Position numbers and translations under genes: made by a program. This document shows positions 25,407 to 56,298 of a stretch of 64,000 nt of DNA, in pieces. A model generated the notes under the pieces. The model saw nothing but the letters and a program-made list of their open reading frames with translations. It was not told the origin of the DNA and did not search any database. The DNA is taken from positions 37,735 through 101,734 of the forward strand of contig LAKY01000049.1 in assembly GCA_000987045.1 (NCBI GenBank), given 5' to 3'. Origin of the DNA: Clostridiales bacterium PH28_bin88. GTDB taxonomy: Bacteria > Bacillota > PH28-bin88. Within the stretch, counting starts at the first letter, position 1. Each line of letters starts with the position of its first letter.

Positions 25407-25410
25407 AAGT

Positions 25411-26403: not shown

Positions 26404-26442
26404 GATATCCTCCCACTCTACGTCATGGGGACTACGCCAAGG

Positions 26443-37419: not shown

Positions 37420-37420
37420 C

Positions 37421-38407: not shown

Positions 38408-38424
38408 GATCTTCCCTCCCTTCC

Positions 38425-39330: not shown

Positions 39331-39338
39331 TCACCTAG

Positions 39339-40280
39339 TCAGATTTTAATCCTCGGATCTACGTACATGTAAACGATGTCCACGATGAGATTGATGAGCA
39401 CGTAAGCGGCCGCGATGTACAGGACAATCCCCTCGATCACCGGGTAATCCCGCCCGGCCACCGAGGTGATGAGCAGCCGGCCGATGCCCGGAATGTTGAA
39501 GATCTGTTCGGTCACCACCGCGCCGCCCATCAGGTTGGCAAAGGTCAGCCCGATAACGGTGATGGTCGGTATCAGGGCGTTTTTCAGGGCGTGTTTGAAG
39601 ATAACAATCCTCTCTACCAGACCCTTGGCCCGGGCGGTCCTGATATAGTCGTTCTGCAGCACTTCCAGCATGTTGGCCCTGGTCATCCTGGCGATGACCG
39701 AGGCCTGGCCCAGGGCCAGCGCCAGGGCGGGCAGCGCCAGGTAGCGTAGGGTCAAGGGAACCCCTTTACTTAACGGGGCGTAGCCCGCTACCGGCAGCCA
39801 GCCCAGCGTCAGGGCAAAGACCAGGATGAACATCAACCCCAGCCAGAAATTGGGAACGGCCACGCCCAGCGAGGTCAGGAACATCACCAGTTGGTCCAAG
39901 AATTTGTTGTGCCGCACGGCGGCGATCACCCCGGCCACAATGCCGATGGTCACTGACAGCAAGAGAGACAGTCCCGTCAGCAGGAGAGTGGCCTGCAGGT
40001 GTTCATAAATGGCCCGGTTGACGCTGCGGTTTAAAAAAATGGATTCCCCCATGTCTCCCCGCAGGATCCTGGCGAACCACTCCACCATCTGCTGGGCCAG
40101 CGGCTTGTTGAGACCCATCTCTTCCCGCAGCCTGTCGATGGCTTCCTGGGTAGCCTCCTGGCCCAAAATGGCGGCAGCCGGGTCCCCCGGAGCCACGTGC
40201 ATGACCACAAACACCACCAGGCCCACGATCAGCATTACCGGGACGAGAGCCATGACGCGCTTCAACAAAAAGGATGGCAA
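39339..40280 (-). CDS. oppB: ABC transporter permease (OppB/DppB type)
   Basis: N-terminal FLLKRVMALVPVMLIV and YIRTARAKGL motifs. Confidence 0.8.
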   Translation of the reverse strand: MPSFLLKRVMALVPVMLIVGLVVFVVMHVAPGDPAAAILGQEATQEAIDRLREEMGLNKPLAQQMVEWFARILRGDMGESIFLNRSVNRAIYEHLQATLLLTGLSLLLSVTIGIVAGVIAAVRHNKFLDQLVMFLTSLGVAVPNFWLGLMFILVFALTLGWLPVAGYAPLSKGVPLTLRYLALPALALALGQASVIARMTRANMLEVLQNDYIRTARAKGLVERIVIFKHALKNALIPTITVIGLTFANLMGGAVVTEQIFNIPGIGRLLITSVAGRDYPVIEGIVLYIAAAYVLINLIVDIVYMYVDPRIKI

Positions 40281-40351
40281 CGGTTATCTCACTCCCTGGG
40301 TGAAAAGGGGCTGGCGGCGGGTCCAGTGCTCCGGCCACCAGCCCTACCCGT

Positions 40352-41926: not shown

Positions 41927-41952
41927 TTGACCTCCTTTGAAGAAATATGGGG

Positions 41953-43401: not shown

Positions 43402-43420
43402 GAGTAAAACGCCTCCCGGT

Positions 43421-44275
43421 TTAGAGGTAAAAATCGAATTCTTTGTTGGCCTCGTCCAGGCCGGCCAGGGCGCGGGCCGCCTTTTCCTTGTTGTCCAGCG
43501 CGATGTTAAGCACCAGCGCGTCCAGGATCACCATGGTGGCCGCGTAGGAGTTGGCAAACCCCGTGGGGTTGGTGCTCTTGGCGGCAAGCACCAGATCGGC
43601 GCCCTGGCCAATGGGGGAGTGCATGTTATCGGTGATGGCGATAACCGAAGCTCCTTTCTTCTTTGCAAATACCATTCCTCTCAGGGTATCCCTGGAGTAC
43701 CTGGGGTAGCTGATGACCACCAAAACGTCTCCCGGCTGGAGGGTGCCCAGGGTTTCGAACATCCAAAATCCACCGGAGGTGATCTTCTCCACCGGCAGTC
43801 CCAACCTTTTCAGGTGAAAGCCCAAAAACTCCGCCAGGGAGGCGCAGCTGCCCACTCCCAAGAGGAGTATCCGGTGCGCTGTGGACAGCCTGCCGACAGC
43901 GGCCGCAAAGCTCCGGTGATCGAAAGCGGAAAAGGTTTTTTCTATGTTGGACAGGACATCTTTAAAGACCATGGCTACCGCTTCGTTCTTTTCTTTTACG
44001 TTCATCAGGGTCTTTTGCATTTTAATGGACGGGGGCTCTTCCTGCTTGACAATTTCATAAATCTCGTCTTTAAGCTGGCTGTAGCCGGAAAAGCCCACAG
44101 ACTGGCAGAACCTGATGACGCTGGCGTCACTTACCCCCACTCTTTCCGCGACTTCCTGAGCACTGAGAGAGGGGATATCCTTGTAGTTCCGCAGGATATA
44201 TTCGGCGATCGCCTGGTGGCCGGTTGAAAGTCCAGGTATTTTCTGTTCGATGATCTGGAACACGGGAGCAGCCAC
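43421..44275 (-). CDS. RpiR/MurR-family transcriptional regulator (HTH_6 plus SIS domain)
   Basis: GHQAIAEYILRNYKDIPSLSAQEVAERVGVSDASVIRFCQSVGFSGYSQLK, followed by a SIS-like domain. GTG start. Confidence 0.8.
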   Translation of the reverse strand: MAAPVFQIIEQKIPGLSTGHQAIAEYILRNYKDIPSLSAQEVAERVGVSDASVIRFCQSVGFSGYSQLKDEIYEIVKQEEPPSIKMQKTLMNVKEKNEAVAMVFKDVLSNIEKTFSAFDHRSFAAAVGRLSTAHRILLLGVGSCASLAEFLGFHLKRLGLPVEKITSGGFWMFETLGTLQPGDVLVVISYPRYSRDTLRGMVFAKKKGASVIAITDNMHSPIGQGADLVLAAKSTNPTGFANSYAATMVILDALVLNIALDNKEKAARALAGLDEANKEFDFYL

Positions 44276-44383: not shown

Positions 44384-44418
44384 GAAAAATTAGCCCCCGG
44401 GGGACGAACCCCGGGGGT
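44384..44418 (-). terminator. Rho-independent terminator of the sigma-54 activator gene
   Basis: CCCCCGGGG-ttcgt-CCCCCGGGGG followed by CTAATTTTT on the minus strand. Confidence 0.75.
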
Positions 44419-44444: not shown

Positions 44445-46154
44445 TCAGGTGACAGGCTGCTCCAGGTCGTAGGCCTTCAGTTTCAGGTACAGGGTGGAGA
44501 GGGAGATGTCCAGCGCCCTGGCAGCGGCCCGTTTGCCCCGCACCGTCCAGCCGTATTTTTTCATGGCCCGCTCGATCATCAACCTCTCCGTCTGCTTTAA
44601 TGAAAGCACCTGGTCATCCCTGTCCTCCCCCACGTCGGGCAGTTCCAGGTGGGCGGTCACCCACCAGGCGGTGATGGATCCCTCGCCTACCAGCAGCACC
44701 GCCCGTTCCAGGAAGTTTTCCAGTTCCCGCACGTTGCCCGGCCAGGGGTAGCGCCGCAGGATCTCCATCGCCTCCGGCTCCACGCCGCGGACCAACTTGC
44801 CGAGCTTCCGGTTCATCTGCCGGATGAAGTGGTCGGCCAAGAGGGGCAGGTCGTCTTTCCTCTCCCTGAGGGGCGGGATTTCCAGCTTCAAGACATTCAG
44901 GCGGTAGTACAGGTCCTTCCGGAAGGTCCCTTCCTCTACCATCTTCTCCAGGTTCCGGTTGGTGGCGGCAATGATGCGCACATCCGCCCGGATGGTCTCG
45001 TTGCCCCCCACCCGTTCGAACTCCCGCTCCTGCAGCACCCTGAGCAGCTTGGCCTGCAGGTAGGGCGACATGTCCCCGATCTCGTCGAGGAAGATGGTCC
45101 CCTCGTGGGCCAGCTCGAACTTGCCCACCTTGGTGCGGGTGGCCCCGGTAAAGGCGCCTTTTTCATAGCCAAAGAGTTCGCTCTCCAGGAGGTTCTCGGG
45201 GATGGCGGCGCAGTTGATCTTGACAAAGGGCCGTTCCCGCCGCTGGCTGGCGTGGTGGATGGCCTGGGCCAGCACCTCCTTGCCGGTGCCGCTCTCCCCC
45301 AGCAGTAAAACAGTGGAGTTGGACTCGGCGGCGGATTCCGCCAGGGATAACAACGCCACCAGGGAAGGGCTGCATCCGATAATGTCCTGGAAGGTGTAGC
45401 GGGTACTGGTGAACCGGTCCAGTTCCTCGTGCAGGTGACGGATGAGTTCGGTGCGCTGCTCCAGTTCCCGGGTCAGGCGCCGCAGTTCGGTGATGTCGTT
45501 GAAGATGACCACCGCTCCTTCCATCTTCCCATCCACCATGATGGGGGCGGCGTTGGAGATCACTTCGATGTCCGTCCCTGTGACGGAGTTGCGCCACCGC
45601 CGCACCATCCGGCCGGTGCGCAGCACCTGGGCCAGCGCCCCCCGGGGGGAGACGTCGTACACGCTTTTCCCGATGCGCTGCTCCGCCGGGATGCCGGTGA
45701 TCTCGGTGAAGGCGGGGTTGACGTACTTTACCAGCCCGTTTTTGTCGGCGACCTGGATCCCCTCCTGGGCCGAGTTGAGGATGGTGCTAAGTTCCTCCTG
45801 GATCTCCTTGATGTGCAGCAGCCGCTCCCGGTCCTCGATGAGGGTCATCATCAGGTTGGCGGCCTCGGCCTCCATGACGGTAACGGTGGGCGGCGCCGCC
45901 TCCCGGATGGCCTGCTGCACTTCCGGACTGCCGGTGGCCTCGATCAGGACGTTCAGCCCCGGGATACTGAGGATGTCCCTGAAGCCGGCGGAGTAGAAGA
46001 TGCCCAGTTCCCGGGCCAGGGCCACCCCTGGCGCCTCCGGGTTGATGTCAGCCGCCCCCACCACCTGGATACGCTCTACGCCCTTCAAGTTTTTCAGGAT
46101 GGAGGTGCCGCCCTTGCCCAGACCCACAATGCCGGCTTTGATGGTGCGGGACAC
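44445..46154 (-). CDS. Sigma-54-dependent transcriptional activator (N-terminal Rossmann-like domain, PAS, AAA+, Fis-type HTH)
   Basis: [14 protein letters not shown]-terminus and a PAS region. AAA+ motifs GESGTGKE and the GAFTGA loop (EKGAFTGA). C-terminal [20 protein letters not shown]. Confidence 0.9.
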
Positions 46155-46233: not shown

Positions 46234-46257
46234 AAAAAGGGAGGGCCTAGCCCTCCC
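46234..46257 (-). terminator. Rho-independent terminator after the symporter gene
   Basis: The minus strand reads GGGAGGGC-tag-GCCCTCCC followed by TTTTT. Confidence 0.75.
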
Positions 46258-46279: not shown

Positions 46280-47719
46280 TTACTCGTCCTTGGTGGCCGC
46301 GACCTGTTCCACCGCCTGCAGGGCGGGCTGGGTGAACAGGGAGACCGCTACGGCAGACGCCGCCGAGGCGGCCACGCCCCAGAGGATGCCGTAAGAGGAC
46401 AGGGAGACGACAGCGCCGACCACCAGGCCCACCCGGGCGCCCCAGGGGGTGAGGCGGCTGTTGTGCACGCCCATCTTGAAGGCCTCGCCGGCGTTGCGCT
46501 TCCACAGGAGGCCCACCAGGAGGACCGGCACCACACTGCCGCCGGCCATGGTATAGGCCTTGGAGAACAGCCCGATGATGCTGCTGGCGTAAATGGCGGC
46601 GATGGCGGCAAAGATACCGACAATGACGGTCAGCCACTTGGCGTAGGTTACCAACTGCTTGTCATCGGCCTTGACAAAGGGCCGGATCAGGTCGTTGACG
46701 ATGATGACCGCCGCCGAGTTCAGGTTGGAGTCGGCGCTGGACATGGCCGCCGCCAGGATGAGGGTGAACACCACGGCGGTAACCCACATGGGCACCACGT
46801 TCATCATCAGCCAGGGCATGGCCTGCCCGGGGTCGCCGGTCGGGTTCAACGCGGCGGAAACCATCCCGACGATGGCGGTCAGGCTCACGGCCACCACGGC
46901 AAAGATACCGCTGAACAGCATCCCGTTGCGGGCGGTCCGGGCGTCCTTGGCGGCGAAGCAGCGCTGCCAGTAGATCTGGGCGGCCAGGTTGCCGAAGCAC
47001 CCGGTAACGAACATGGTAAGGATCTTTTTCAAGGGGATGGCGGTCTGGGTAATGCCCGTGAGGCCGGCCTCGGCCAGTTTCTGGTTCAGGACAGCGAAGC
47101 TGAAGTTAACTGGGGCTAAAGCGTAGGCGTAAAAGAGGACGCCGAACACCACCACGATGATGCCCTGCAGCAGGTCGGTCCACACCACGGCATAAATCCC
47201 GCCCAGCATGGTATAGAGGATGAAGACGGCGGAGAAGAACAGGATGACCGGCAGCGGGTCCATACCGGTAAAGGTGGCGAAGATCTGGCCCAGGCCCTTG
47301 CCCTGGCCGCCCACCCAGGCGATCATGATGGAAGCTGTCAAAAGGCCCACGATGGCACGGGTGACCTTGTCCCGGACCAGCAGGTCGTCCATCATCTCGG
47401 AGATAGTGTTATAGGTAAAGCGGCCGGCCAGGCCGGCGAACACCAGGGCGAAGATGATCTTGGAACCCTGCTCGCCGAATACGAAAGCGATCTGGCTGTA
47501 GCCGTTTTTGAAGGCGGCGGTGGCGTGGCCCATGAAATTGCCCGCCCCCATGATGGTTGCGATGTCGGTAAATAAGACCAGGATCAGGGGCAGGGTGCCG
47601 CCGGCGATGGCGAACTGAGTAAAGCTGGCGCTGGCCTCGTCCTTGGTCCTCAAGGCAATCCAAAGAAATACTCCACAAAAGATAATGGTAATGATCCAGG
47701 TGATTGCTCCTAAACTCAT
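46280..47719 (-). CDS. Sodium:solute symporter (SSS) family transporter
   Basis: About 13 TM segments. N-terminal and GG/AG-rich helix patterns are typical of the PutP/PanF-like SSS family. Confidence 0.75.
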   Translation of the reverse strand: MSLGAITWIITIIFCGVFLWIALRTKDEASASFTQFAIAGGTLPLILVLFTDIATIMGAGNFMGHATAAFKNGYSQIAFVFGEQGSKIIFALVFAGLAGRFTYNTISEMMDDLLVRDKVTRAIVGLLTASIMIAWVGGQGKGLGQIFATFTGMDPLPVILFFSAVFILYTMLGGIYAVVWTDLLQGIIVVVFGVLFYAYALAPVNFSFAVLNQKLAEAGLTGITQTAIPLKKILTMFVTGCFGNLAAQIYWQRCFAAKDARTARNGMLFSGIFAVVAVSLTAIVGMVSAALNPTGDPGQAMPWLMMNVVPMWVTAVVFTLILAAAMSSADSNLNSAAVIIVNDLIRPFVKADDKQLVTYAKWLTVIVGIFAAIAAIYASSIIGLFSKAYTMAGGSVVPVLLVGLLWKRNAGEAFKMGVHNSRLTPWGARVGLVVGAVVSLSSYGILWGVAASAASAVAVSLFTQPALQAVEQVAATKDE

Positions 47720-47799
47720 CTCTTAACCTCCTTCTCTAATTTTGCCGCTATTTCGCATTCCTTCCCTGATCAGTTCCCTTTTCCCAGGCATCACCTCCT

Positions 47800-48045
47800 T
47801 TAGCCGCCGCCCAGGGGCGGCAACAGCGCTATCTCATCCCCGTCGGCCAGGGGGCGCAGGGTTTCGGCCCGGCGCCCGTTCACCAGCACCAGCATTACCT
47901 CGCCGCGGGGAATGGAAAACCTGTCCAGGAGGTCACCCACGGTGACCCCTTCCTCTATCTCCAGGGCGGCCGCATTGTGATGGTAGCGCCGCCGCACATA
48001 TTCGCCCAGGGTGGCAATCCCTTTAACCCGCACTCGCATCTTCAC
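47800..48045 (-). CDS. MoaD/ThiS-family ubiquitin-like small protein
   Basis: 81 aa ending ...LLPPLGGG. Its ATG overlaps the AOR stop (ATGA). Confidence 0.7.
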   Translation of the reverse strand: MKMRVRVKGIATLGEYVRRRYHHNAAALEIEEGVTVGDLLDRFSIPRGEVMLVLVNGRRAETLRPLADGDEIALLPPLGGG

Positions 48046-49751
48046 GCACCCCCGTATACCGCGTCCAGTTCTTCTTCCGGAACGTCAAACACCGTCTCGT
48101 GGGGGTGCAGCCTCTCTTCCCCGAAGAACTCGGGCAGCCGGTCGTGAGCCCGGTCAAACCCCGCCCGCCGGTTGAAGCCCCTTTCCACTTCAATCACTCG
48201 AGCGCTTACGGCTTCCAGGTCCCCGGTCGTCCACTCCCGCCCGGTGAAGCCGCTCAGCAGTTCCGCAATTAGGCGCCGGTCTTCCAGGAAGGGTGCCCGG
48301 GTAAACCAGCAGAGGCCCAGGGTATCGAAGAGGGCGTGGGCCAGGCCGAAGAAGCGGGCGTACTCCCGCTGTCCCCCGGCCCCCAGGGGGTCTACCTTGC
48401 CCCCCAGGCCGTTGCCGTTGGTGTGGTCCGCCCCCATGGGAGACGTGGCGTAGGTGACGCCGGCCCCCTTCAAGGCCCTGGGGTCGTAGGCGGCCATACT
48501 CTGGCCCTTGACCACCGGCACCCGCCGCACCCCCAGCACCCGGCCGGTGATGGCGGCACCCTGGCCCAGGATCTTTCCCAGGTAGGTGCCCTGGACCATC
48601 TCCTCGATGAGTTCCCGCATCCCGCGGGAGTCGCCGAAGGGCAGCACGCCGGCCTCCATGGCTACCGCCAGGGCGGCCCCCACCTCCATGGTGTCCAGGC
48701 CCAAGTCGTCGCACAGTCGGTCCATGGCGGCGATGGCGTCCAGGTCGTCCACCCCGCAGTTGGACCCCAGCATGCCGATGGTCTCGTATTCCAACCCGGA
48801 GGTCAGGTAGCGCCCTGCCGCGTCGTTGTATACGTTGGAACACCTGATGATGCAGCCCGGGTGGCAGGGGTGGCCGGCTACGCCGCCCCGCTCCCTGACC
48901 AGCCGGAGAAAGGTGTCCCCGTTGATGCGGGAAGCCCCTTCGAACCGGCCGGTAGAATAGTTGCGGGTGGGCAGTGCGCCCGCTTCGTTGACAATATCCA
49001 CCAGGGCGGTGGTGCCGTAGGTAGGTAGGACCTTGGCGGTGGTGGGGTTGGTCCTCAAGGCGCTCACGAAACCCCGAAGCGCCTCCCGGAACCTTTCCGG
49101 GTCGCGGGGAGCTACCTGGCCGGGGGAGGGCTTGTCCAGCACAACGGCCTTGATCCCCTTGGACCCCAGGACGGCCCCCATTCCGCCCCTGCCCGCGTGG
49201 CGGGAGGGCTGGCCCTCGGTGTTGGTGACCGCCACACTGGCCAGGGGCAGCATCCGCTCGCCGGCAGGCCCGATGGAGATGACGGAAACCTGCCGGCCGT
49301 ACCACTCACGCAGGGCGGCGACCAGGTCGTAGTTGCCCAGCCCCACCAGGTCTCCGGCCGGCTCCAGCCTGGCCCCCTCCGGGGATATATATAAAAGATG
49401 CCAGTGCCCCGGCTCCGGGGAACCCGCAAAAACCACCGCCCGGTAACCCAGGCGCGCCAGCCGCTGGCCGGCGGTACCCCCCACATTGCTCTCCTTGATG
49501 GTCCCGGTAAGGGGGCTCTTCCCGCCCACGGAAAGCCGGCCGGAGCAGGGCACGGCGGACCCGGTCAACAGGCCGGGGGCGATGACCACCTTGTTGTGCC
49601 GGCCCAGGGGGTGGGCGGTTGGAGGCACTTCCCGGGCCACCAGGCGGGAGGCCAACCCCCGCCCTCCCAGGTGTTCCCATTCCGCGTCCAGGGGGTGGCT
49701 GGTTATGTTGCCTTTCTCTGTATTTACTCTTAATACCTGCAAAGAACTCAA
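48042..49751 (-). CDS. aor: Aldehyde:ferredoxin oxidoreductase (tungstopterin AOR family)
   Basis: N-terminus LRVNTEKGNITSHPL..., GGRGLASRL, and a 4Fe-4S ligand region. About 570 aa. The real start is probably the TTG at 49742 (GGGGG-N9). Confidence 0.8.
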   Translation of the reverse strand: MSSLQVLRVNTEKGNITSHPLDAEWEHLGGRGLASRLVAREVPPTAHPLGRHNKVVIAPGLLTGSAVPCSGRLSVGGKSPLTGTIKESNVGGTAGQRLARLGYRAVVFAGSPEPGHWHLLYISPEGARLEPAGDLVGLGNYDLVAALREWYGRQVSVISIGPAGERMLPLASVAVTNTEGQPSRHAGRGGMGAVLGSKGIKAVVLDKPSPGQVAPRDPERFREALRGFVSALRTNPTTAKVLPTYGTTALVDIVNEAGALPTRNYSTGRFEGASRINGDTFLRLVRERGGVAGHPCHPGCIIRCSNVYNDAAGRYLTSGLEYETIGMLGSNCGVDDLDAIAAMDRLCDDLGLDTMEVGAALAVAMEAGVLPFGDSRGMRELIEEMVQGTYLGKILGQGAAITGRVLGVRRVPVVKGQSMAAYDPRALKGAGVTYATSPMGADHTNGNGLGGKVDPLGAGGQREYARFFGLAHALFDTLGLCWFTRAPFLEDRRLIAELLSGFTGREWTTGDLEAVSARVIEVERGFNRRAGFDRAHDRLPEFFGEERLHPHETVFDVPEEELDAVYGGA

Positions 49752-49777
49752 CCCCCTTTGCTCAGAATTCAGCTACG

Positions 49778-49913
49778 CCATGGGGACGGTTCCATCGTCT
49801 CCCCGATTAAGGAATGGGGACACACCTGCTGAAGCCCGGGCTGGTCTTTTGGGACAGGAATGTCCCCAACTAAGCTTCGCTACGTTTCGGGGACGCTCGA
49901 ACCGTCCCCATGG
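49778..49913 (+). repeat. GGGGAC-hairpin palindromic element, full form, inside the operon
   Basis: CCATGGGGACGGTTCCATCG...GGGGACGCTCGAACCGTCCCCATGG. Near-identical to 24743-24877. Confidence 0.95.
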
Positions 49914-49945
49914 CTCCGCTTACTTTTACCAAACCGTTCTCTCAT

Positions 49946-49965
49946 TCTGACTCCTGACTCCTGAA
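49946..49965. repeat. Tandem heptamers (minus strand TCAGGAG)
   Basis: tctgactcctgactcctgaa, directly after the stop of 49966-51150. Confidence 0.8.
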
Positions 49966-51150
49966 TCAGGATGCTTCCTGCCTGGTTTGAAAACGGGTAA
50001 TGCTGAAGGGCCGCAGGGTTTCCGGCACCTGCCCGGCGGCCAGGCACTCCGCCATCAGCATCCCGGTAACCGGCGCCAGGGCAACCCCGTCTCCCTCGTG
50101 GCCGGCGGCCATGTAGAAACCTTTGATCTCCGGCACCGGGCCCAGGATGGGCAGGCCGTCGGGGGTGTAGGGCCTGAGGCCCGCAAAGGTACGGATCAGG
50201 TTGATGTGCTTGATGGCCGGCACCAGCCGGACGGCGTTGGTGGCGATAGCGGTGAGGGCGCCGTAGGTGGTACCGCGATCGTACCCCACGAACTCCCGGG
50301 TAGCCCCGATGAGGAGGTTGCCGCTGTGGGTCTGGCCGAGGGAAAGCCCCACCCCCATCCGGGCGGCCTTGCCCGTGGCCCTGGCCACCAGAGCCGGGTT
50401 GTGCTTGGCCACAATGTACTTGGCGCTCAAGATGTCCCCGTGGATGAGTTTGGGCACCGGTTCCGACACCAGGATCTGGCCCCGGCGGGGTTTGATGGGG
50501 ATCTCCAGCCCCACCATGCGGCCCACTTCGGGGGCATAGGCCCCGGCGCAGTTAACCACCTGCCGGGCCCGGATTTCGCCCCGGTCGGTAACCACCCCGG
50601 TTACCCGGCCCTGCTCCGTCAGGATGCCGGTAACATTGGTCCCCAGGGCGATCCGGGCGCCCAGCCGGCGGGCGGCCCGGGCAAAGGCCAGGGTGAGGTT
50701 GATGGGGTTCACCTCAGCGTCCATGGCGCTGTGGGTAGCGCCTACGATGTGCCGGCTCAGGGCAGGCTGGCGCGTGAGCGCCTCCTCCCTGTCCAGCAGG
50801 TCCACCGAGAGGCCAATCTCTTGCTGGCGGCGGACAAAATCCCGCATTACCGCCAGTTCTTCTTCGGTCTCGATGACGATCATGCCGCCGTCCCGGGAGT
50901 ATTCCAGGTCCGCACCCAGTTCATCCCCCAGAGCCGGGTAGATGGCGGCGCTTTTCAGGGCCAGCTGCAGGTGCAGGCCCGGGTTTTTGGACTGGAGGAT
51001 GACCGCCTTGTCGCACGCCCCGGAGGAACCAGCGGCCAGGTCGGCCCTCTCTACCAGCAGCACCTCGCGGCCCTGCCTGGCCAGGTAGTAAGCGATGGAG
51101 GTGCCGATGGCCCCACCGCCGATGATCACTGTTTCCGCAGCCGTCATCAC
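49966..51150 (-). CDS. FAD-dependent oxidoreductase, DAO family (beta/HcnC/OoxB-like subunit)
   Basis: VIIGGGAIGTSIAYYLARQGREVLLVE is a dinucleotide fold. The length and C-terminal HEGDG region are typical of sarcosine-oxidase-beta, proline-dehydrogenase-beta or HcnC proteins. Confidence 0.8.
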   Translation of the reverse strand: MMTAAETVIIGGGAIGTSIAYYLARQGREVLLVERADLAAGSSGACDKAVILQSKNPGLHLQLALKSAAIYPALGDELGADLEYSRDGGMIVIETEEELAVMRDFVRRQQEIGLSVDLLDREEALTRQPALSRHIVGATHSAMDAEVNPINLTLAFARAARRLGARIALGTNVTGILTEQGRVTGVVTDRGEIRARQVVNCAGAYAPEVGRMVGLEIPIKPRRGQILVSEPVPKLIHGDILSAKYIVAKHNPALVARATGKAARMGVGLSLGQTHSGNLLIGATREFVGYDRGTTYGALTAIATNAVRLVPAIKHINLIRTFAGLRPYTPDGLPILGPVPEIKGFYMAAGHEGDGVALAPVTGMLMAECLAAGQVPETLRPFSITRFQTRQEAS

Positions 51151-51428
51151 TCATCGTCTCCTTCCAGGAGAATGCCTATGGGGATGGTCCGCACCGGCGG
51201 GCGGCTGGTGGGCGGCAGCAGGTCCTCCACCTTTTGCCCGGTGGCCCCCGCCAGGATACCGGCTACCTGCTTGCGGCAGGTGCGGCCCTGGCACAGGCCC
51301 ATGCCGGCCCGGGTACGGCGCTTGACCCCGTTCAGGGTGACTGCGCCGTCGGCGACGGCTTCTTCTATCTCCCGCCGGGAGACTTCCTCGCAGCGGCAGA
51401 TGATTATCTCCTTATTCACGAGTTGCAC
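51147..51428 (-). CDS. BFD-like (2Fe-2S)-binding small subunit
   Basis: IIICRCEEVSRREIEEAV...RTRAGMGLCQGRTC. Confidence 0.75.
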   Translation of the reverse strand: MQLVNKEIIICRCEEVSRREIEEAVADGAVTLNGVKRRTRAGMGLCQGRTCRKQVAGILAGATGQKVEDLLPPTSRPPVRTIPIGILLEGDDE

Positions 51429-51931
51429 CTCCCCAGCCTGGCCATAGACCGGACCTGATCGGCGAACTCGCGGGGTACCGCCAGGGAAACCACCGCGGTG
51501 CCGTCGTTCCTGTCGGGTTTTCTCACCTTGATCACTTTACCGCCGGTGACCACCCGGCCGCCCCGGTCGGTGGCCTGTACCTCGTCCCCCTCGCGGGGAA
51601 GAGGCAGGTACTCGTAGGGGAAGGACACCAGGGCCTGCCCGTCCCCGTGGTTGTAGTCCACCTGGAAGATGGCCAGCCCGGGGCAGGCCGGTATGCAGGC
51701 GCCGCAGCCGGTGCACTTCTCCTCGTCCAGCCGGGGCAGCCCGGTGATGGGAACACCCACCCGGATGGCTCCCCGGGGGCAGGAGTACTCGCAGGGGTTG
51801 CACGGGATCTCCTGGACGCATTCAATCACCGCCACCGGCCCCCGCTCCAGCCGCCCGGGGCTGGGCCTCCCGGGGCACCGGGACAGTTCTTCCGCTGAGG
51901 GTTCACCTGTATAGACAATGCCTGACTTCAT
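51416..51931 (-). CDS. 4Fe-4S dicluster ferredoxin-like subunit
   Basis: I prefer the start MKSGIVYTG at 51931 (ATGA overlap with the upstream stop). Motifs CNPCEYSCP and CTGCGACIPACP. The longer track ORF to 52336 is an Arg/Gly-rich artefact. Confidence 0.75.
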   Translation of the reverse strand: MKSGIVYTGEPSAEELSRCPGRPSPGRLERGPVAVIECVQEIPCNPCEYSCPRGAIRVGVPITGLPRLDEEKCTGCGACIPACPGLAIFQVDYNHGDGQALVSFPYEYLPLPREGDEVQATDRGGRVVTGGKVIKVRKPDRNDGTAVVSLAVPREFADQVRSMARLGRCNS

Positions 51932-53019
51932 GCCTGACACCTCGCCTTGATCAGTTCCTGCTTGGCGTCCTGCCGGTGCTGCCCGAAGGGGCCGGTCCGC
52001 AGGGCCGCCAGTCTCTCGAGAACGGCTGTCTTTTTCTCCGCGGCCCGCTCCGGCGGGCAGCAGCCCAGGGCTTCCGCCGCGGCCACCCCGGCCAGCCGGC
52101 CTTCTTCCATGGCGGAGGAAGCCTCTTCCACGCCGGTGATGTCTCCGGCCACGTAGATGCCCTTGACGGTGGTCTCCATGTTCCCGTCGTGCAGGGGCAC
52201 GTGCCCGCCCAGTTTGGGGATGTAGGCAAAACGGCAGCCCGCCATCCAGGCCATTTCCGCCAGGGGGGTCAACCCTACCGCCAGGCAGACGGTGTCCACT
52301 TCCAGGGTTTTTTCGGTGCCGGGTACGGGGCGGCACCCCTCGTCCAGTTCCACGATGGTGGCGCTCTCCACTTCTTGGGAGCCGGACACCTCCCGGACAG
52401 TGTGAGAGGTAAGGATGGGCACGCCCGCCCGGCGTACCTTGGCGGCGTGCACCCCGTAGCCGCTGATGTGCGGCGCCGCCTCCACCAGGGCGACCACGTC
52501 AGCCCCCGCCTGCATCAACTGGTAGGAAACAATCAAACCCACGTTGCCCGATCCCACCATCAGCACCCGCCGGCCGGGCAGCACCCGGTGCAGGTTGATC
52601 AGGGTCTGGGCCGCCCCGGCGGTCATCACCCCCGGCAGGGTGGAACCGGGGAAGGAAAGGGCGTTCTCCGACGCCCCGGTGGCCAGGATCAGGGCCCCTG
52701 CCTGGTACAGGCTGCTGGCCATGTTTTCCATCACCGCCAGCTGCCTGTGCTGGTACAGCCCGTAGACGGTGGCGTTCAGGTGAACGTCCACCCCCAGCCT
52801 CCTGGTTTCCGCCAACAGATCTTCTCCTATCTTGAAACCCCTAGTCCCGGCCTGGTGTTCCCGGGAACCGAAGAACTTGTGGATCTGCTTGAAGAGCTGC
52901 CCTCCCGGCAGTCCGTTCTCGTCAAACACCGTCACCCGGGCCCCCGCCGCCGCGGCCTCGATGGCCGCCGCCAGCCCCGCCGGACCCGCGCCTACCACGG
53001 CAACCTGGATGTTTTTCAC
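51928..53019 (-). CDS. NAD(P)/FAD-dependent oxidoreductase (alpha/HcnB/OoxA-like subunit)
   Basis: VAVVGAGPAGLAAAIEAAAAGARVTVFDE plus a second dinucleotide fold VLMVGSGNVGL. Confidence 0.8.
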   Translation of the reverse strand: MKNIQVAVVGAGPAGLAAAIEAAAAGARVTVFDENGLPGGQLFKQIHKFFGSREHQAGTRGFKIGEDLLAETRRLGVDVHLNATVYGLYQHRQLAVMENMASSLYQAGALILATGASENALSFPGSTLPGVMTAGAAQTLINLHRVLPGRRVLMVGSGNVGLIVSYQLMQAGADVVALVEAAPHISGYGVHAAKVRRAGVPILTSHTVREVSGSQEVESATIVELDEGCRPVPGTEKTLEVDTVCLAVGLTPLAEMAWMAGCRFAYIPKLGGHVPLHDGNMETTVKGIYVAGDITGVEEASSAMEEGRLAGVAAAEALGCCPPERAAEKKTAVLERLAALRTGPFGQHRQDAKQELIKARCQA

Positions 53020-53336
53020 GCGCTGTCACCCCACCGTCCCAGGCCCAGTTGGGTCTCGATGACCATGCCGCCGCGCACCGGGGTGACGCAGGTCCGCACG
53101 TTGGGAACCCCGTCCACCGTCATCATGCAGTCGGTGCAGCGGCCGATACCGCAAAAGACACCCCTGGGTTCTCCTTTTTTGTGAGTGCGGCGGAACACCC
53201 GGATGCCCGCCGCCATTAACGCGGCGGCAATGGGCTCTCCCTCGTAGGCCTCGACAGGACGCCGGTCAACGGTAATGGTTACTCTGGTCCGTTCTGCAGG
53301 TAGTGCGCCCAATACTGGATGGTCTGTTACCCGCAC
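53016..53336 (-). CDS. (2Fe-2S)-binding small subunit (HcnA / sarcosine-oxidase-alpha N-terminal type)
   Basis: GTG start at 53336, 10 nt after AAAGGAGG. Motif GVFCGIGRCTDCMMTVDGVPNVRTC. The track extension to 53756 has non-coding character. Confidence 0.75.
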   Translation of the reverse strand: MRVTDHPVLGALPAERTRVTITVDRRPVEAYEGEPIAAALMAAGIRVFRRTHKKGEPRGVFCGIGRCTDCMMTVDGVPNVRTCVTPVRGGMVIETQLGLGRWGDSA

Positions 53337-53407: not shown

Positions 53408-53423
53408 TGCAAGATCCGTTCCA
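53408..53423 (-). promoter_or_regulatory. Sigma-54 (-24/-12) promoter
   Basis: The minus strand reads TGGAACGGATCTTGCA, against the consensus TGGCACG-N4-TTGCA. GG and GC have the exact spacing. It lies about 72 nt upstream of the GTG at 53336. Confidence 0.7.
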
Positions 53424-53542: not shown

Positions 53543-53557
53543 TTCCGATTTTCGGAA
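53543..53557. promoter_or_regulatory. Palindromic candidate enhancer (UAS) site 1
   Basis: TTCCGA-ttt-TCGGAA perfect inverted repeat, about 125 nt upstream of the sigma-54 promoter. Confidence 0.5.
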
Positions 53558-53599: not shown

Positions 53600-53614
53600 T
53601 TCCGATAATCGGAA
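53600..53614. promoter_or_regulatory. Palindromic candidate enhancer (UAS) site 2
   Basis: TTCCGA-taa-TCGGAA. A third partial site, GATTATCGGAA, is at about 53624-53634. Confidence 0.5.
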
Positions 53615-54140: not shown

Positions 54141-54175
54141 TAAAAACACGAATGCCGCGGTTTTTTGCCGCGGCG
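54141..54175 (-). terminator. Probable terminator of the saccharopine-dehydrogenase-like gene
   Basis: The minus strand reads GCCGCGGC-aaaaaa-CCGCGGC followed by ATTCGTGTTTTT. Confidence 0.55.
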
Positions 54176-54316: not shown

Positions 54317-55429
54317 TTACTTAAGCCCCTGGGTACAGTGCACGTTGATGTTCCGTTCGGCCAGGGCGGCGATAAAGGCGTCAGGATCCACCGCCCCGGG
54401 AGCCTCGGGGGCGAAGACTCCCGCCCGCCGGATCTGGCCCCGGCCCAGCATCAGCGCGCCGATGGCCAGGGGCACCCCGGTAAGATTGTTCATGTGGTCA
54501 GCGGCCTGGTAAACCAGGTGCTGTGATTGGCCGGCCCGCTCGCCCTTGATATCCACCCGGATGCCCGAAATGGGCACACCCGGTTTGCCGACTTTCTCCA
54601 GGGCCGGCAGGATGGTCTTGATTATCTTGCCGACCACCTGTTTCTTGCGGCGGGTGTTGGTCAGCCGGAGGCGGGCGATGGCCACTGCCAGGCTGTTCAA
54701 GAACTCTTCCGTAAGCCCGCCCTTCAGGGTGACTGTTTTGACTCCGGGAATATAGCGGGGAAGGGTGACCGGTTCGGGGTGGCCCAGGTGAAACATGGAT
54801 ACCCGGCCCAGGGGCTCGATAAACTCCACCCGCTCCTTGCCGCTGCCCGCCGCTACCCGCACCTGCCGGCCGCCAGTAAAGCTGGGGACCTGCCCGGTAA
54901 AGATGTGGATGGTGTGCAGGACCACCGCAAATCCGGTGGAATCGGCGGAGGCTCCGGCCCAGTAGATATTGATCTCGTCCACCCGGTCCAACTGGTCTGC
55001 TCCTTTGCGGGCCAGCACGTTGCTAAGACCGGGCGTCCACCCCATGCCGGTCAGTACCTTGACCCCCAGTTCCCCGGCCCGCCCGTCCAGCGGCAGGATG
55101 CTTTCCACCGCGTCGTAGTCGTCGCAGATGCTGGTGTAGTTGACCCGGGCCTCCAAAGCGGCCTCCACCATCACCTTTTCGTACCTGTAAAAGGGACCGA
55201 TGGCGCCGGCGGCCACATCGTGACCGCGCATCGCCTCCACCAGGGTGCGGGGTTGGTTGGCATCCACCTGAACTACCTTGACCTTCTCCCCCGACTCCGA
55301 GGCAAGCTTCCTGGCGGCGGCTAGGTTAAGGTCGGCGATGGTCAACTCCGTCACTTCCGGCTGGCGCGCCAGGTCCCGCACCGCCCGGCTGCCCATGTCC
55401 CCCGCCCCGCCCAGTACCACGACTTTCAT
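54317..55429 (-). CDS. Saccharopine dehydrogenase family NAD(P)-binding enzyme
   Basis: MKVVVLGGAGDMGSRAVRDLARQPEV N-terminal Rossmann fold. The 370-aa length and C-terminal domain pattern fit the Sacchrp_dh family. Confidence 0.7.
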   Translation of the reverse strand: MKVVVLGGAGDMGSRAVRDLARQPEVTELTIADLNLAAARKLASESGEKVKVVQVDANQPRTLVEAMRGHDVAAGAIGPFYRYEKVMVEAALEARVNYTSICDDYDAVESILPLDGRAGELGVKVLTGMGWTPGLSNVLARKGADQLDRVDEINIYWAGASADSTGFAVVLHTIHIFTGQVPSFTGGRQVRVAAGSGKERVEFIEPLGRVSMFHLGHPEPVTLPRYIPGVKTVTLKGGLTEEFLNSLAVAIARLRLTNTRRKKQVVGKIIKTILPALEKVGKPGVPISGIRVDIKGERAGQSQHLVYQAADHMNNLTGVPLAIGALMLGRGQIRRAGVFAPEAPGAVDPDAFIAALAERNINVHCTQGLK

Positions 55430-56269: not shown

Positions 56270-56298
56270 CCATGGGGACGCTCGAACCGTCCCCATGG
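56270..56298. repeat. Minimal GGGGAC hairpin (10-bp stem)
   Basis: CCATGGGGAC-gctcgaacc-GTCCCCATGG. Confidence 0.95.

What the first reader, a model, noticed from the sequence alone, without database searches (positions are those of the whole stretch)
46280..53336. Predicted sigma-54 operon coupling an HcnABC/proline-dehydrogenase-like complex to a tungsten AOR, MoaD and a Na+ symporter
The gene order is 2Fe-2S subunit, NAD/FAD subunit, 4Fe-4S subunit, BFD-like subunit, DAO-family FAD subunit, AOR, MoaD-like, then SSS transporter. Translational overlaps (ATGA) occur within both halves. The five-subunit set resembles the heteromeric L-proline dehydrogenases of Thermococcales, opine oxidases (OoxAB), D-hydroxyproline dehydrogenase and HCN synthase. 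My hypothesis is that an imported amino or imino acid is oxidised to an imine that hydrolyses to an aldehyde (for example P5C/glutamate semialdehyde). The PutP-like symporter fits proline or a relative as the substrate. AOR would then oxidise the aldehyde to the acid with ferredoxin as acceptor, replacing an NAD-dependent aldehyde dehydrogenase. As far as I know, a genetic fusion of these two modules in one operon is not a described pathway.
Basis: inference. Interest (0 to 1): 0.65.

Follow-up and report, generated by a model that had tools for sequence, protein, structure and literature searches.

The report
Flavoprotein–tungsten AOR operon missing its aldolase
This is a real sigma-54-controlled operon that joins a five-subunit iron-sulfur flavoprotein dehydrogenase to a tungsten aldehyde oxidoreductase and a sodium symporter; the same coupling recurs in at least seven other lineages, always with a DapA-type aldolase between the two halves, and this copy has lost that gene, so the pathway is probably not the proline route first proposed.

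Summary
All eight genes lie on the minus strand at the stated coordinates and are tightly coupled. They sit behind a sigma-54 -24/-12 element with two upstream palindromes and end at a terminator; the activator gene follows.

The coupling of the flavoprotein complex to AOR is real. Seven other lineages carry it, and their AORs form one clade of a large, otherwise unlinked AOR subfamily.

In every one of those loci a DapA-type aldolase is also present, directly upstream of AOR in six. These aldolases pass the NCBIfam dapA equivalog cut-off and keep T44, Y107, Y133, R138 and K161. The window alone lacks the gene. Its 214-nt DAO/AOR gap holds a 136-nt dispersed palindromic repeat instead.

In related loci an ALDH plus aspartase, or Asd plus aspartate kinase, takes AOR's place. 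The aldehyde is therefore most likely aspartate semialdehyde, made by the aldolase, rather than P5C/glutamate semialdehyde.

The symporter is not PutP. The imported substrate is unknown; dipicolinate or diaminopimelate are speculative candidates.

I found no published description of this operon.

The parts
53600..53614 (.). Palindrome TTCCGATAATCGGAA, a candidate upstream activator site for the sigma-54 activator
   Evidence: two exact matches in the 64 kb window against 0.15 expected by chance. The same palindrome lies upstream of the orthologous operon in L083.
53543..53557 (.). Second palindrome, TTCCGATTTTCGGAA (candidate activator site)
53409..53423 (-). Sigma-54 -24/-12 promoter element TGGAACggatcTTGC(A)
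   Evidence: one mismatch to TGGCAC-N5-TTGC. Positionally equivalent elements precede the first gene in L083, L014, L175 and L176.
53016..53336 (-). 2Fe-2S subunit (Fer2_4), 106 aa, with the ribosome-binding site AAAGGAGG upstream
   Evidence: Pfam PF13510, 112 bits. 60-74% identical homologues head the same five-gene module in many loci.
51928..53019 (-). NAD(P)/FAD subunit (Pyr_redox_2), 363 aa
   Evidence: Pfam PF07992, 131 bits. It matches the middle part of the SoxA model (145 bits). The nearest solved structure is the sarcosine oxidase alpha subunit, 75 bits.
51416..51931 (-). 4Fe-4S ferredoxin-like subunit, 171 aa
   Evidence: Pfam Fer4 families. ATGA overlap with the preceding gene.
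51147..51428 (-). BFD-like 2Fe-2S / sarcosine-oxidase A3-like small subunit; the likely start is the GTG at 51419
   Evidence: Pfam PF04324 58 bits and PF17806 45 bits. Junction sequence.
49966..51150 (-). DAO-family FAD dehydrogenase, the catalytic beta-like subunit, 393-394 aa
   Evidence: Pfam PF01266, 253 bits. Nearest solved structure is 1Y56_B, P. horikoshii proline dehydrogenase beta. In a neighbour-joining tree it groups with L083 and L085, next to DAOs linked to DapA or DapB.
49778..49913 (.). 136-nt palindromic dispersed repeat filling the DAO/AOR gap, at the position where relatives carry the DapA-type aldolase gene
   Evidence: The terminal motif occurs 30 times in the window against 3.3 expected. 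It is near-identical to the copies at 23864-23999 and 24743-24878. The gap folds to -96 kcal/mol, z-score -5.4. No Rfam match. No DHDPS remnant in the window.
48042..49751 (-). Tungsten-type aldehyde:ferredoxin oxidoreductase, 569 aa
   Evidence: AFOR_N 209 bits and AFOR_C 267 bits. 259 bits to P. furiosus AOR 1AOR, with the cluster cysteines (C296, C300, C304, C481) and the Glu/His positions aligned. It belongs to the operon-specific AOR clade.
47800..48045 (-). MoaD/ThiS-like protein, 81 aa, with a C-terminal GG
   Evidence: Pfam PF02597 and PF14451. GTGA overlap with AOR. MoaD-like genes accompany 33 of the 80 related AOR loci.
46280..47719 (-). Sodium:solute symporter (SSS family), 479 aa, specificity unknown
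   Evidence: Pfam PF00474. PutP equivalog 57 bits against a cut-off of 515. Among the loci and L083, the 13 with a symporter at least 58% identical include 12 that also carry the DapA-type aldolase.
46239..46257 (-). Intrinsic terminator ending the operon
   Evidence: 8-bp GC-rich stem followed by TTTTT.
44445..46154 (-). Sigma-54 activator (Rossmann-like N-terminal domain, PAS, AAA+, HTH_8), 569 aa, with its own terminator at 44417..44394
   Evidence: Pfam. Best NCBIfam hit is PrdR, 463 bits, below the 795 cut-off. Homologues 50-60% identical flank the DAO-DapA-SSS units with or without AOR.

Best explanation
The locus is one sigma-54-dependent catabolic operon of a conserved, apparently uncharacterised type. 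The intact form reads: activator; Fer2_4 - Pyr_redox_2 - Fer4 - BFD - DAO (a five-subunit Fe-S flavoprotein amino/imino-acid dehydrogenase); a DapA-type aldolase; a clade-specific tungsten AOR (often with MoaD); and an uptake transporter.

Proposed sequence of events:
1. An organic anion is imported by the Na+ symporter (inferred).
2. It is oxidised, or redox-processed, at the DAO flavin. Electrons pass through the Fe-S subunits to the NAD(P)/FAD subunit or to ferredoxin (inferred from the domains).
3. In the intact operons the product is split by the DapA paralogue into pyruvate and an aldehyde. That aldehyde is most likely L-aspartate 4-semialdehyde (inferred from conserved DapA residues and from the alternative partner genes).
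4. AOR oxidises the aldehyde to the acid with ferredoxin as acceptor, doing the job that an ALDH or Asd plus aspartate kinase does in sister loci (inferred from synteny).

In this window the aldolase gene has been deleted and a 136-nt dispersed repeat sits in its place (shown by comparison). All other genes are intact. The operon therefore either depends on the housekeeping DapA in trans or is a recently crippled copy.
For: Operon anatomy:
- Domains, overlaps, promoter, palindromes and terminator are as described.
- Sigma-54 promoters are conserved in L083, L014, L175 and L176.

Coupling of AOR to the complex:
- L001/L002, L014, L083, L169/L170, L175, L176 and L177 all carry AOR with the complex or its DAO/DapA end.
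- These AORs form one clade in the neighbour-joining tree.
- AORs outside the clade are never linked to the complex. This holds for P0004 and P0012 and for the 80 metagenome loci, 0 of 80.

The aldolase:
- It is present in all seven other lineages and absent only here, and the window holds no remnant of it.
- The gap element is a dispersed repeat.
- The aldolases score 330-373 bits on the dapA equivalog, cut-off 206.
- Their best solved relative is Bacillus DapA, 311 bits.
- They keep T44, Y107, Y133, R138 and K161.
- The presumed hydroxyproline-pathway deaminase of S. meliloti scores only 100 bits and lacks T44, Y107 and R138.

Alternative partners pointing to aspartate semialdehyde and aspartate:
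- Asd plus aspartate kinase flank the GntR-type clusters L057, L062, L069 and L082, and occur only in DapA-containing loci.
- L025 has an ALDH plus an aspartate ammonia-lyase that passes its equivalog cut-off.
- The minimal activator-DAO-DapA-SSS islands in Tepidanaerobacteraceae encode no aldehyde-oxidising enzyme at all. This fits an aldehyde that is a central metabolite.

The window AOR looks catalytically intact.
Against: - No biochemistry exists for any member of this operon type.
- DapA is generally regarded as working in the synthetic direction (my knowledge). A retro-aldol role for the paralogue is an assumption.
- The imported substrate is unknown.
- The window itself lacks the aldolase, so its own AOR may see a different aldehyde, or none.
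- Asd and aspartate kinase next to some clusters may simply be housekeeping lysine-pathway genes. L057 also carries a second, housekeeping-like DapA plus DapB.
- The trees are neighbour-joining without support values.
- The closest DAO relatives also occur without DapA or AOR (L085, L171, L173, L003), so the complex can work on its own.
- The pSymB ORF used as the deaminase comparator was identified from my memory of the hyp cluster and from a DAO homologue 7 kb away, not from an annotation.
Confidence: 0.55

Rival explanations
1. The complex is a proline-, hydroxyproline- or pipecolate-type imino-acid dehydrogenase. Its cyclic imine opens spontaneously to an amino-semialdehyde such as glutamate semialdehyde. 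AOR oxidises that directly, with no aldolase needed, so the window's aldolase-less layout is a working variant.
For: - The DAO subunit's nearest solved relative is the P. horikoshii L-proline dehydrogenase beta subunit.
- The alpha/beta/gamma/delta-like subunit set resembles the Thermococcus profundus enzyme described in PMC4364671.
- Family members L011 and L046 sit beside an L-piperidine-6-carboxylate dehydrogenase equivalog, which is exactly this logic with an ALDH.
- The closest DAO homologue, L085 (66% identity), lies next to a PutA-type Pro_dh gene.
- All window genes are intact.
Against: - All seven other lineages that link AOR to the complex carry the DapA-type aldolase, directly upstream of AOR in six.
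- Among the loci and L083, 12 of the 13 with a symporter at least 58% identical to the window's also carry the aldolase. This argues that the window has the same substrate as the aldolase-containing operons.
- The PutP model scores 57 bits against a cut-off of 515.
- The Pyr_redox_2 subunit is only weakly like PDH alpha (48 bits, partial).
- No P5C dehydrogenase, proline racemase or epimerase was found among the annotated neighbours.
Confidence: 0.15
2. Two independent units that merely abut: a flavoprotein operon, and a generic AorR-type aor-moaD unit for aldehyde detoxification or acid reduction with its own sigma-54 activator.
For: - aor-moaD under a sigma-54 activator is a described regulon in Clostridium and Geosporobacter (PMC6615313).
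- AOR-MoaD pairs occur in many unrelated contexts (33 of 80 loci; L168).
- A 214-nt gap holding a very stable hairpin separates the two halves here.
Against: - There is no sigma-54 or sigma-70-like promoter and no terminator in the gap.
- In relatives AOR follows DapA with 0-30 nt spacing.
- The AORs in this context form their own clade.
- The activator is orthologous (50-52% identity) to those flanking DAO-DapA-SSS islands that have no AOR at all. It therefore belongs to the flavoprotein/transporter part of the operon.
Confidence: 0.06
3. A biosynthetic reading. AOR reduces aspartate to aspartate semialdehyde using reduced ferredoxin. DapA makes HTPA. The flavoprotein complex then oxidises dihydrodipicolinate to dipicolinate, acting as an alternative dipicolinate synthase (or feeds lysine/DAP synthesis). 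This would be analogous to the Bacillus subtilis spoVF-asd-dapG-dapA operon (my knowledge).
For: - The aldolase is a bona fide DapA by model score and residues.
- Asd, aspartate kinase and DapB neighbour some clusters.
- AORs can run in the acid-reducing direction, slowly (PMC6365974).
- The window organism is a spore former (SpoIID), and L083 has SpoVA genes nearby.
Against: - The operons carry uptake systems, including binding-protein-dependent TRAP-TAXI transporters (L176, L177, L025).
- They are governed by substrate-sensor-type regulators: a PAS sigma-54 activator or a GntR/FCD regulator.
- L025 includes aspartase and an ALDH, which are catabolic.
- Carriers include lineages not known to sporulate: Ignavibacteriales, Treponema and deltaproteobacterial MAGs.
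Confidence: 0.07
4. The window copy is a non-functional remnant. Loss of the aldolase broke the pathway and the remaining genes are decaying.
For: - The aldolase is absent only here.
- A mobile-looking repeat occupies its site.
- Lesions at the same junction occur in close relatives. L083's AOR lacks its N-terminal ~200 residues, and L169's AOR is split by a frameshift.
Against: - All eight remaining genes, the promoter, the palindromes and the activator are intact and full-length against homologues.
- Because the operon aldolases keep every DapA catalytic residue, the housekeeping DapA could plausibly substitute (inference).
- The lesions in the metagenome-derived relatives may be assembly errors.
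Confidence: 0.15

Closest known systems
Heteromeric dye-linked L-proline dehydrogenases of Thermococcales (P. horikoshii PDH1, PDB 1Y56; T. profundus alpha-beta-gamma-delta enzyme)
   Same: A DAO-family catalytic beta subunit is the nearest solved relative (164 bits). There is also an NAD/FAD alpha-like subunit, a ferredoxin-like gamma and a small delta-like subunit. The product is an imine.
   Different: - The system is bacterial, and similarity to the solved beta subunit is only moderate (164 bits).
- The alpha-like subunit is closer to the sarcosine oxidase alpha subunit than to PDH alpha.
- There is an extra Fer2_4 subunit.
- The operon context (DapA-type aldolase, AOR, symporter, sigma-54) is unlike the archaeal clusters.
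Bacterial 4-hydroxyproline pathway: D-hydroxyproline dehydrogenase (LhpBEF or HypO), Pyr4H2C deaminase (DHDPS family) and 2-oxoglutarate semialdehyde dehydrogenase (PMC4113996)
   Same: The three-step logic and protein superfamilies match: a DAO-type dehydrogenase (heteromeric with 2Fe-2S and Pyr_redox_2 subunits in LhpBEF), then a DHDPS-family enzyme, then an aldehyde-oxidising enzyme.
   Different: - The DHDPS-family member here is DapA-type, not deaminase-type.
- The aldehyde oxidiser is a tungsten AOR, not an ALDH.
- No hydroxyproline epimerase was found.
- The window lacks the DHDPS member altogether.
AorR / aor-moaD sigma-54 regulon of Clostridia (PMC6615313), and AOR operons with MoaD-like maturation genes (aorD/aorE, PMC6365974)
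   Same: AOR is followed by a MoaD-like gene, with an adjacent sigma-54 activator.
   Different: - Here there is no sigma-54 promoter directly upstream of aor.
- AOR is embedded downstream of a flavoprotein/aldolase operon.
- The activator co-occurs with DAO-DapA-SSS even where AOR is absent.
L-pipecolate oxidase / L-piperidine-6-carboxylate dehydrogenase (AmaA/AmaB-type) lysine-pipecolate catabolism
   Same: A DAO-family imino-acid oxidation is followed by oxidation of the ring-opened amino-semialdehyde. Relatives L011 and L046 encode a P6C dehydrogenase equivalog next to the complex.
   Different: The window clade has AOR instead of ALDH and an interposed DapA-type aldolase. Its DAO is not an AmaA equivalog (47 bits against a cut-off of 600).
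DapA (4-hydroxy-tetrahydrodipicolinate synthase) and the Bacillus spoVF-asd-dapG-dapA dipicolinate operon (the latter from my knowledge)
   Same: The relatives' aldolase is DapA by model score and catalytic residues. Some clusters are flanked by asd, aspartate kinase and dapB.
   Different: The context is catabolic-looking (importers, substrate-type regulators, aspartase or ALDH). The paralogues form their own group, 51-55% identical to each other against 42-47% to the other DapA copies.

Membership tests
Tungsten aldehyde:ferredoxin oxidoreductase (AOR family, AOR branch) | AFOR_N plus AFOR_C domain architecture | tested here: met
   PF02730 209 bits and PF01314 267 bits. 259-279 bits to solved AORs, against 73-77 bits to BamB and WOR5.
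Tungsten aldehyde:ferredoxin oxidoreductase (AOR family, AOR branch) | Four Cys ligands of the [4Fe-4S] cluster, and the Glu/His near the metal (P. furiosus numbering from my knowledge) | tested here: met
   C296, C300, C304 and C481 align with the Cys motif of 1AOR. The EYE and ADH motifs align with the P. furiosus Glu and His positions. These columns are invariant in the subfamily alignment.
Tungsten aldehyde:ferredoxin oxidoreductase (AOR family, AOR branch) | Tungsten-pyranopterin content and aldehyde-oxidising activity with ferredoxin | not testable with these tools
   Needs metal analysis and enzyme assays.
Heteromeric L-proline dehydrogenase (Thermococcales PDH) | Beta subunit orthologous to PDH beta | tested here: inconclusive
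   1Y56_B is the best solved hit, but at only 164 bits. Glycine oxidases follow closely at 153 bits.
Heteromeric L-proline dehydrogenase (Thermococcales PDH) | Alpha subunit orthologous to PDH alpha (NADH dehydrogenase) | tested here: not met
   1Y56_A scores 48 bits over a partial match. Sarcosine oxidase alpha (75 bits) and thioredoxin-reductase-like proteins score higher.
Heteromeric L-proline dehydrogenase (Thermococcales PDH) | L-proline as substrate, or genomic linkage to proline catabolism | tested here: not met
   No P5C dehydrogenase or proline racemase among the annotated neighbours. The PutP model scores far below its cut-off. Enzyme activity itself is not testable here.
Hydroxyproline pathway (LhpBEF/LhpC/LhpG type) | DHDPS-family Pyr4H2C deaminase of the HypD/LhpC type | tested here: not met
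   The gene is absent from the window. In relatives the DHDPS member is DapA-type. The presumed S. meliloti HypD is only 20-25% identical and lacks T44, Y107 and R138.
Hydroxyproline pathway (LhpBEF/LhpC/LhpG type) | Heteromeric DAO + 2Fe-2S + Pyr_redox_2 dehydrogenase | tested here: inconclusive
   The domain architecture matches. No LhpBEF sequences were available for direct comparison.
HCN synthase HcnABC | HcnA (2Fe-2S), HcnB (Pyr_redox_2) and HcnC (DAO) orthology | not tested
   Only the domain-level resemblance was seen. One homologue carries an automated 'HcnC' label (P0166). The extra Fer4 and BFD subunits and the operon context differ.
AorR / aor-moaD sigma-54 regulon | aor-moaD pair with an adjacent sigma-54 activator | tested here: met
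   Regulon description in PMC6615313.
AorR / aor-moaD sigma-54 regulon | Sigma-54 promoter immediately upstream of aor | tested here: not met
   No -24/-12 match with two or fewer mismatches in 49752-49965.
Na+/proline symporter PutP | Score above the NCBIfam PutP equivalog cut-off | tested here: not met
   TIGR02121 57 bits against 515.5; NF011948 27 bits against 955.
DapA (HTPA synthase); applies to the aldolase of the related operons, not to the window | dapA equivalog score plus the catalytic triad T44/Y107/Y133, the ASA-binding R138 and the Schiff-base K161 | tested here: met
   330-373 bits against a cut-off of 206. All residues are conserved in 17 of 17 cluster-associated copies.

The most novel reading that the evidence does not exclude
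The conserved operon, of which this window holds an aldolase-less copy, encodes an undescribed anaerobic pathway that runs the first steps of the diaminopimelate/dipicolinate pathway backwards.

An imported C7 compound from dead cells would be the substrate: dipicolinate from spores, or diaminopimelate from peptidoglycan. The Fe-S flavoprotein complex would convert it to dihydro- or hydroxy-tetrahydrodipicolinate. The DapA paralogue would cleave that to pyruvate plus aspartate semialdehyde. The dedicated tungsten AOR would oxidise the semialdehyde to aspartate.

For dipicolinate the overall reaction is redox-neutral: dipicolinate + 3 H2O gives pyruvate + aspartate. The low-potential ferredoxin reduced by AOR would supply the electrons needed to reduce the pyridine ring. 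That would explain why a ferredoxin-linked AOR, rather than an NAD-linked ALDH, is the conserved partner.
Probability: 0.15. Interest if true: 0.85.

Novelty: new variant of a known kind. Interest (0 to 1): 0.6.

Why it matters
Physiological substrates of bacterial tungsten AORs are mostly unknown, and they are usually treated as broad-range detoxifiers. Here one AOR clade is locked into a defined operon, which gives it a testable pathway role, probably oxidation of aspartate semialdehyde.

The operon also contains a DapA paralogue in a catabolic setting. That would be an unusual use of a textbook biosynthetic enzyme.

If the substrate proves to be dipicolinate or diaminopimelate, this would give a gene set for the anaerobic turnover of spore or cell-wall debris. 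Fermentative degradation of dipicolinate is on record (Seyfried and Schink 1990, cited in PMC8048543), but I found no genes assigned to it.

For annotation, the five-subunit 'sarcosine oxidase / HcnC-like' complexes of anaerobes are a mixed family. Their neighbours (aldolase, ALDH, P6C dehydrogenase, racemase, transporter type) can be used to split them by function.

Tried and rejected
- A molybdenum/tungsten-cofactor riboswitch or other known RNA in the DAO/AOR gap. Rfam gave nothing at gathering thresholds, and only chance-level hits at E up to 10. The structure is a dispersed repeat.
- A separate sigma-54 promoter, sigma-70-like promoter or terminator in the gap. None was found.
- A DHDPS pseudogene remnant in the window. 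None.
- Looking up the window's own contig through its AOR protein. It is not on record, so the rest of the genome, including any dapA elsewhere, could not be inspected.
- PutP identity for the symporter. Rejected.
- The hydroxyproline-type deaminase reading of the relatives' DHDPS gene. Rejected on model score and residues. Watanabe et al. 2012 (PMC3463351) could not be read, so I used the pSymB ORF as comparator instead.
- The activator's N-terminal sensor domain. It gives only generic Rossmann-fold hits and is uninformative.
- The neighbouring RpiR / amidohydrolase / Opp-like operon and the saccharopine-dehydrogenase-like gene. NCBIfam gave no specific assignment, and no link to the operon could be shown.
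- Literature searches joining AOR with hydroxyproline, aspartate semialdehyde or sarcosine-oxidase-like operons. They returned nothing relevant.

Full report
**1. What is in the window.**

All the genes of the finding lie on the minus strand at the stated coordinates. Pfam and NCBIfam assign them as follows:

| Gene | Coordinates | Assignment |
|---|---|---|
| 1 | 53336..53016 | Fer2_4 2Fe-2S protein |
| 2 | 53019..51928 | Pyr_redox_2 NAD/FAD protein; matches the central part of the SoxA model |
| 3 | 51931..51416 | 4Fe-4S ferredoxin-like protein |
| 4 | 51428..51147 | BFD-like / SO_alpha_A3 protein |
| 5 | 51150..49966 | DAO-family flavoprotein |
| 6 | 49751..48042 | AOR (AFOR_N + AFOR_C) |
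| 7 | 48045..47800 | MoaD/ThiS-like protein ending in GG |
| 8 | 47719..46280 | SSS transporter |

Five junctions have 4-nt start/stop overlaps, one ATGA and four GTGA.

A sigma-54 -24/-12 element, TGGAACggatcTTGCA, lies at 53423..53409, about 70 nt upstream of the first gene. Two TTCCGA-N3-TCGGAA palindromes lie 120-190 nt further upstream, against 0.15 expected by chance.

A clean intrinsic terminator at 46257..46239 follows the transporter. The sigma-54 activator gene (46154..44445; PAS, AAA+, HTH_8) follows with its own terminator.

**2. The gap between the two halves.**

The 214-nt DAO/AOR spacer has no sigma-54 site, no sigma-70-like site and no terminator. It matches no Rfam family.

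It folds very stably, at -96 kcal/mol with z-score -5.4. The reason is a 136-nt palindromic element at 49778-49913. The 15-nt terminal motif of this element occurs 30 times in the window, against 3.3 expected. The element is nearly identical to copies at 23864-23999 and 24743-24878. It is a dispersed REP- or MITE-like repeat, not a regulatory RNA specific to this operon.

**3. Does the coupling recur?**

Yes, but only in one clade.

*From the AOR side.* The protein belongs to a very large subfamily of roughly 576-aa AORs.
- Among the 80 closest AOR loci in metagenome contigs, none has the flavoprotein genes nearby. Thirty-three have a MoaD-like gene.
- Two homologues at 56% identity (P0004, P0012) sit in unrelated contexts.

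*From the DAO side.* Among the 80 closest loci in species-representative genomes, only L014 has a close AOR.

*Targeted look-ups.* These found the same linkage repeatedly:

| Locus | Arrangement |
|---|---|
| L001/L002 | AOR divergent from DAO-SSS-GntR-BFD-DHDPS-Fer2-PyrR-Fer4 |
| L014 | activator-Fer2-PyrR-Fer4-BFD-DAO-DHDPS-AOR-SSS |
| L083 | fully syntenic with the window, but with DHDPS between DAO and AOR |
| L169/L170 | BFD-DAO-DHDPS-AOR-MoaD |
| L175 | activator-Fer2-PyrR-Fer4::BFD-DAO-DHDPS-AOR-SSF |
| L176, L177 | ...DAO-DHDPS-AOR-MoaD-racemase-like, with a divergent TRAP-TAXI transporter |

In a neighbour-joining tree the AORs of the window, L170, L175, L014, L001, L176 and L177 form one clade. 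Every clade member whose context I could read lies in this operon.

Sigma-54 -24/-12 elements precede the first gene in L083, L014, L175 and L176. L083 also shares the TTCCGA-N3-TCGGAA palindrome.

**4. The missing gene.**

Every one of these seven other lineages has a DHDPS-family gene in the cluster. In six it lies directly upstream of AOR, with 0-30 nt spacing. In L001/L002 it lies inside the divergently transcribed cluster.

The window has none, and tblastn finds no remnant. The repeat element occupies the position.

The window and L083 are otherwise collinear from Fer2_4 to the activator, at 44-72% protein identity. Loss in the window lineage is therefore the parsimonious reading.

The same junction is damaged in two close relatives. 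L083's AOR lacks its N-terminal ~200 residues. L169's AOR is split by a frameshift. These may be real lesions or assembly errors.

**5. What kind of DHDPS protein.**

It is not the hydroxyproline-pathway deaminase.
- The operon copies score 330-373 bits on the NCBIfam dapA equivalog, whose cut-off is 206.
- Their best solved relative is Bacillus DapA, 311 bits.
- All 17 cluster-associated copies keep E. coli DapA residues T44, Y107, Y133, R138 (the aspartate-semialdehyde carboxylate binder) and K161.
- As comparator I took a DHDPS-family ORF from the hydroxyproline region of S. meliloti pSymB. I identified it from memory of the hyp cluster and from a DAO homologue 7 kb away.
  - It scores 100 bits on the dapA model.
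  - It is 20-25% identical to the operon copies.
  - It has S44, L107 and Y138 at the key positions.
- The operon copies are 51-55% identical to each other across sigma-54-type and GntR-type clusters, but 42-47% identical to the other DapA copies in these loci.

**6. Which aldehyde.**

Three lines of evidence point to aspartate semialdehyde.
- (a) The aldolase keeps the full DapA specificity set.
- (b) In sister clusters the slot that AOR fills is taken by other enzymes.
  - Asd plus aspartate kinase fill it in L057, L062, L069 and L082. These two gene clusters occur only in DapA-containing loci.
  - An ALDH plus an aspartate ammonia-lyase above its equivalog cut-off fill it in L025. An ALDH fills it in L035.
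- (c) The minimal activator-DAO-DapA-SSS islands of Tepidanaerobacteraceae sit among housekeeping genes and encode no aldehyde oxidiser. This makes sense if both aldolase products are central metabolites.

This is inference, and no enzyme has been assayed. DapA is normally considered a synthetic enzyme (my knowledge).

**7. The flavoprotein complex.**

The DAO subunit's best solved relative is the beta subunit of P. horikoshii L-proline dehydrogenase (164 bits). Glycine oxidases follow closely. It is below every NCBIfam equivalog cut-off. The Pyr_redox_2 subunit is closer to the sarcosine oxidase alpha subunit than to PDH alpha.

The wider family is functionally mixed. Loci carry TRAP-TAXI, ABC or SSS transporters, Asp/Glu-type racemases and various ALDHs. 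L011 and L046 carry an L-piperidine-6-carboxylate dehydrogenase equivalog, which suggests pipecolate dehydrogenases.

In the neighbour-joining tree the window DAO groups with L083 and L085, next to a clade of DAOs linked to DapA or DapB. The five-gene module also occurs without aldolase or AOR (L003, L171, L173).

**8. Transporter and regulator.**

The symporter is a generic SSS member. It scores 57 bits on the PutP equivalog (cut-off 515) and 79 bits on PanF (cut-off 328).

Among the loci and L083, 13 carry a symporter at least 58% identical to the window's. Twelve of the 13 also have the DapA-type aldolase. This argues that the window imports the same substrate as the intact operons.

Activators 50-52% identical to the window's flank DAO-DapA-SSS islands that lack AOR. 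The regulator therefore belongs to the whole pathway and is not an AorR-type regulator of aor alone. The known AorR/aor-moaD regulon (PMC6615313) and the MoaD-like genes in AOR operons (PMC6365974) explain the AOR-MoaD pairing.

**9. Mechanism proposed.**

| Step | Status |
|---|---|
| One sigma-54 operon with activator sites | Shown by sequence and comparison |
| AOR intact, with cluster and active-site residues | Shown |
| Clade-specific linkage of complex, aldolase and AOR | Shown |
| Aldolase deleted in this window | Shown by comparison |
| Substrate imported | Inferred |
| Substrate processed at the DAO flavin, electrons routed through the Fe-S subunits | Inferred |
| DapA paralogue yields pyruvate plus aspartate semialdehyde | Inferred |
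| AOR oxidises the aldehyde to aspartate, reducing ferredoxin | Inferred |

In this window the aldolase step must be supplied in trans by the housekeeping DapA, or the pathway is broken.

The substrate is unknown. Dipicolinate gives a redox-neutral conversion: dipicolinate + 3 H2O gives pyruvate + aspartate. Diaminopimelate/tetrahydrodipicolinate is the other candidate that would lead to a DapA substrate. Both are speculation. Fermentative degradation of dipicolinate has been reported (Seyfried and Schink 1990, cited in PMC8048543).

**10. Comparison and novelty.**

The logic matches two known routes in which a DAO-type dehydrogenase is followed by a semialdehyde dehydrogenase.
- The 4-hydroxyproline pathway (DAAO, DHDPS and ALDH superfamilies; PMC4113996).
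- The pipecolate / piperidine-6-carboxylate route.

It differs in three ways: a ferredoxin-linked tungsten AOR, a DapA-type aldolase, and a five-subunit Fe-S flavoprotein.

Searches of the held literature found no description of this operon. I rate it a new variant of a known kind. The window copy is an atypical, aldolase-less member.

Noticed in passing
window 9995-10045, 13700-13818, 15175-18091, 23864-26595, 29866-29880, 49778-49913, 56270-56298: A family of palindromic repeats of about 136 nt, with termini CCATGGGGACGGTTC, is scattered through intergenic regions. There are 30 terminal motifs in 64 kb against 3.3 expected. Copies at 23864, 24743 and 49778 are nearly identical, and around 26438-26603 several termini are stacked. 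It looks like a REP- or MITE-like element that is recently active in this genome.
   Followed up: partly
window 7856-10060 and 13530-18410: Two low-GC regions (0.42-0.44) flank a 1077-aa ORF (10066-13299). They share multiple duplicated blocks of 45-300 nt at 76-100% identity and are full of small ORFs of 80-117 aa. This may be duplicated toxin-antitoxin-like or mobile cassettes.
   Followed up: no
window 36454-44275 (minus strand): Immediately downstream of the activator lies a separate unit: a MurR/RpiR-family regulator (SIS domain), a 482-aa amidohydrolase with no specific family assignment, and a five-gene Opp/Dpp-type ABC transporter (SBP_bac_5, two permeases, two ATPases). A role in peptide or muropeptide uptake is conceivable but was not shown.
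   Followed up: partly
window 54317-55429 (minus strand): A saccharopine-dehydrogenase-family protein (370 aa) lies just upstream of the operon's regulatory region, with a terminator-like hairpin at 54174..54154. No NCBIfam model matches it. It is absent from the syntenic locus L083.
   Followed up: partly
L083 12068-13165; L169 3852-5145: In the two closest relatives the AOR gene is damaged at or near the DapA/AOR junction. L083's AOR lacks the whole N-terminal domain, and L169's AOR is split by a frameshift, whereas the near-identical L170 is intact. Together with the window's aldolase loss this suggests either a fragile junction or relaxed selection. Assembly error cannot be excluded.
   Followed up: partly
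L057 600-15259; L069 7438-16636; L062; L082: GntR-type versions of the cluster (DAO-SSS-GntR-BFD-DapA-Fer2-PyrR-Fer4) are flanked by aspartate-semialdehyde dehydrogenase, aspartate kinase and DapB genes. L057 has two Asd, two DapB and a second DapA within 15 kb.
   Followed up: partly
L011 5335-6891; L046 6160-7692: Some five-subunit 'sarcosine oxidase/HcnC-like' complexes of anaerobes sit beside an L-piperidine-6-carboxylate dehydrogenase equivalog, a TPP enzyme and a TRAP-TAXI transporter. This suggests heteromeric L-pipecolate dehydrogenases.
   Followed up: no
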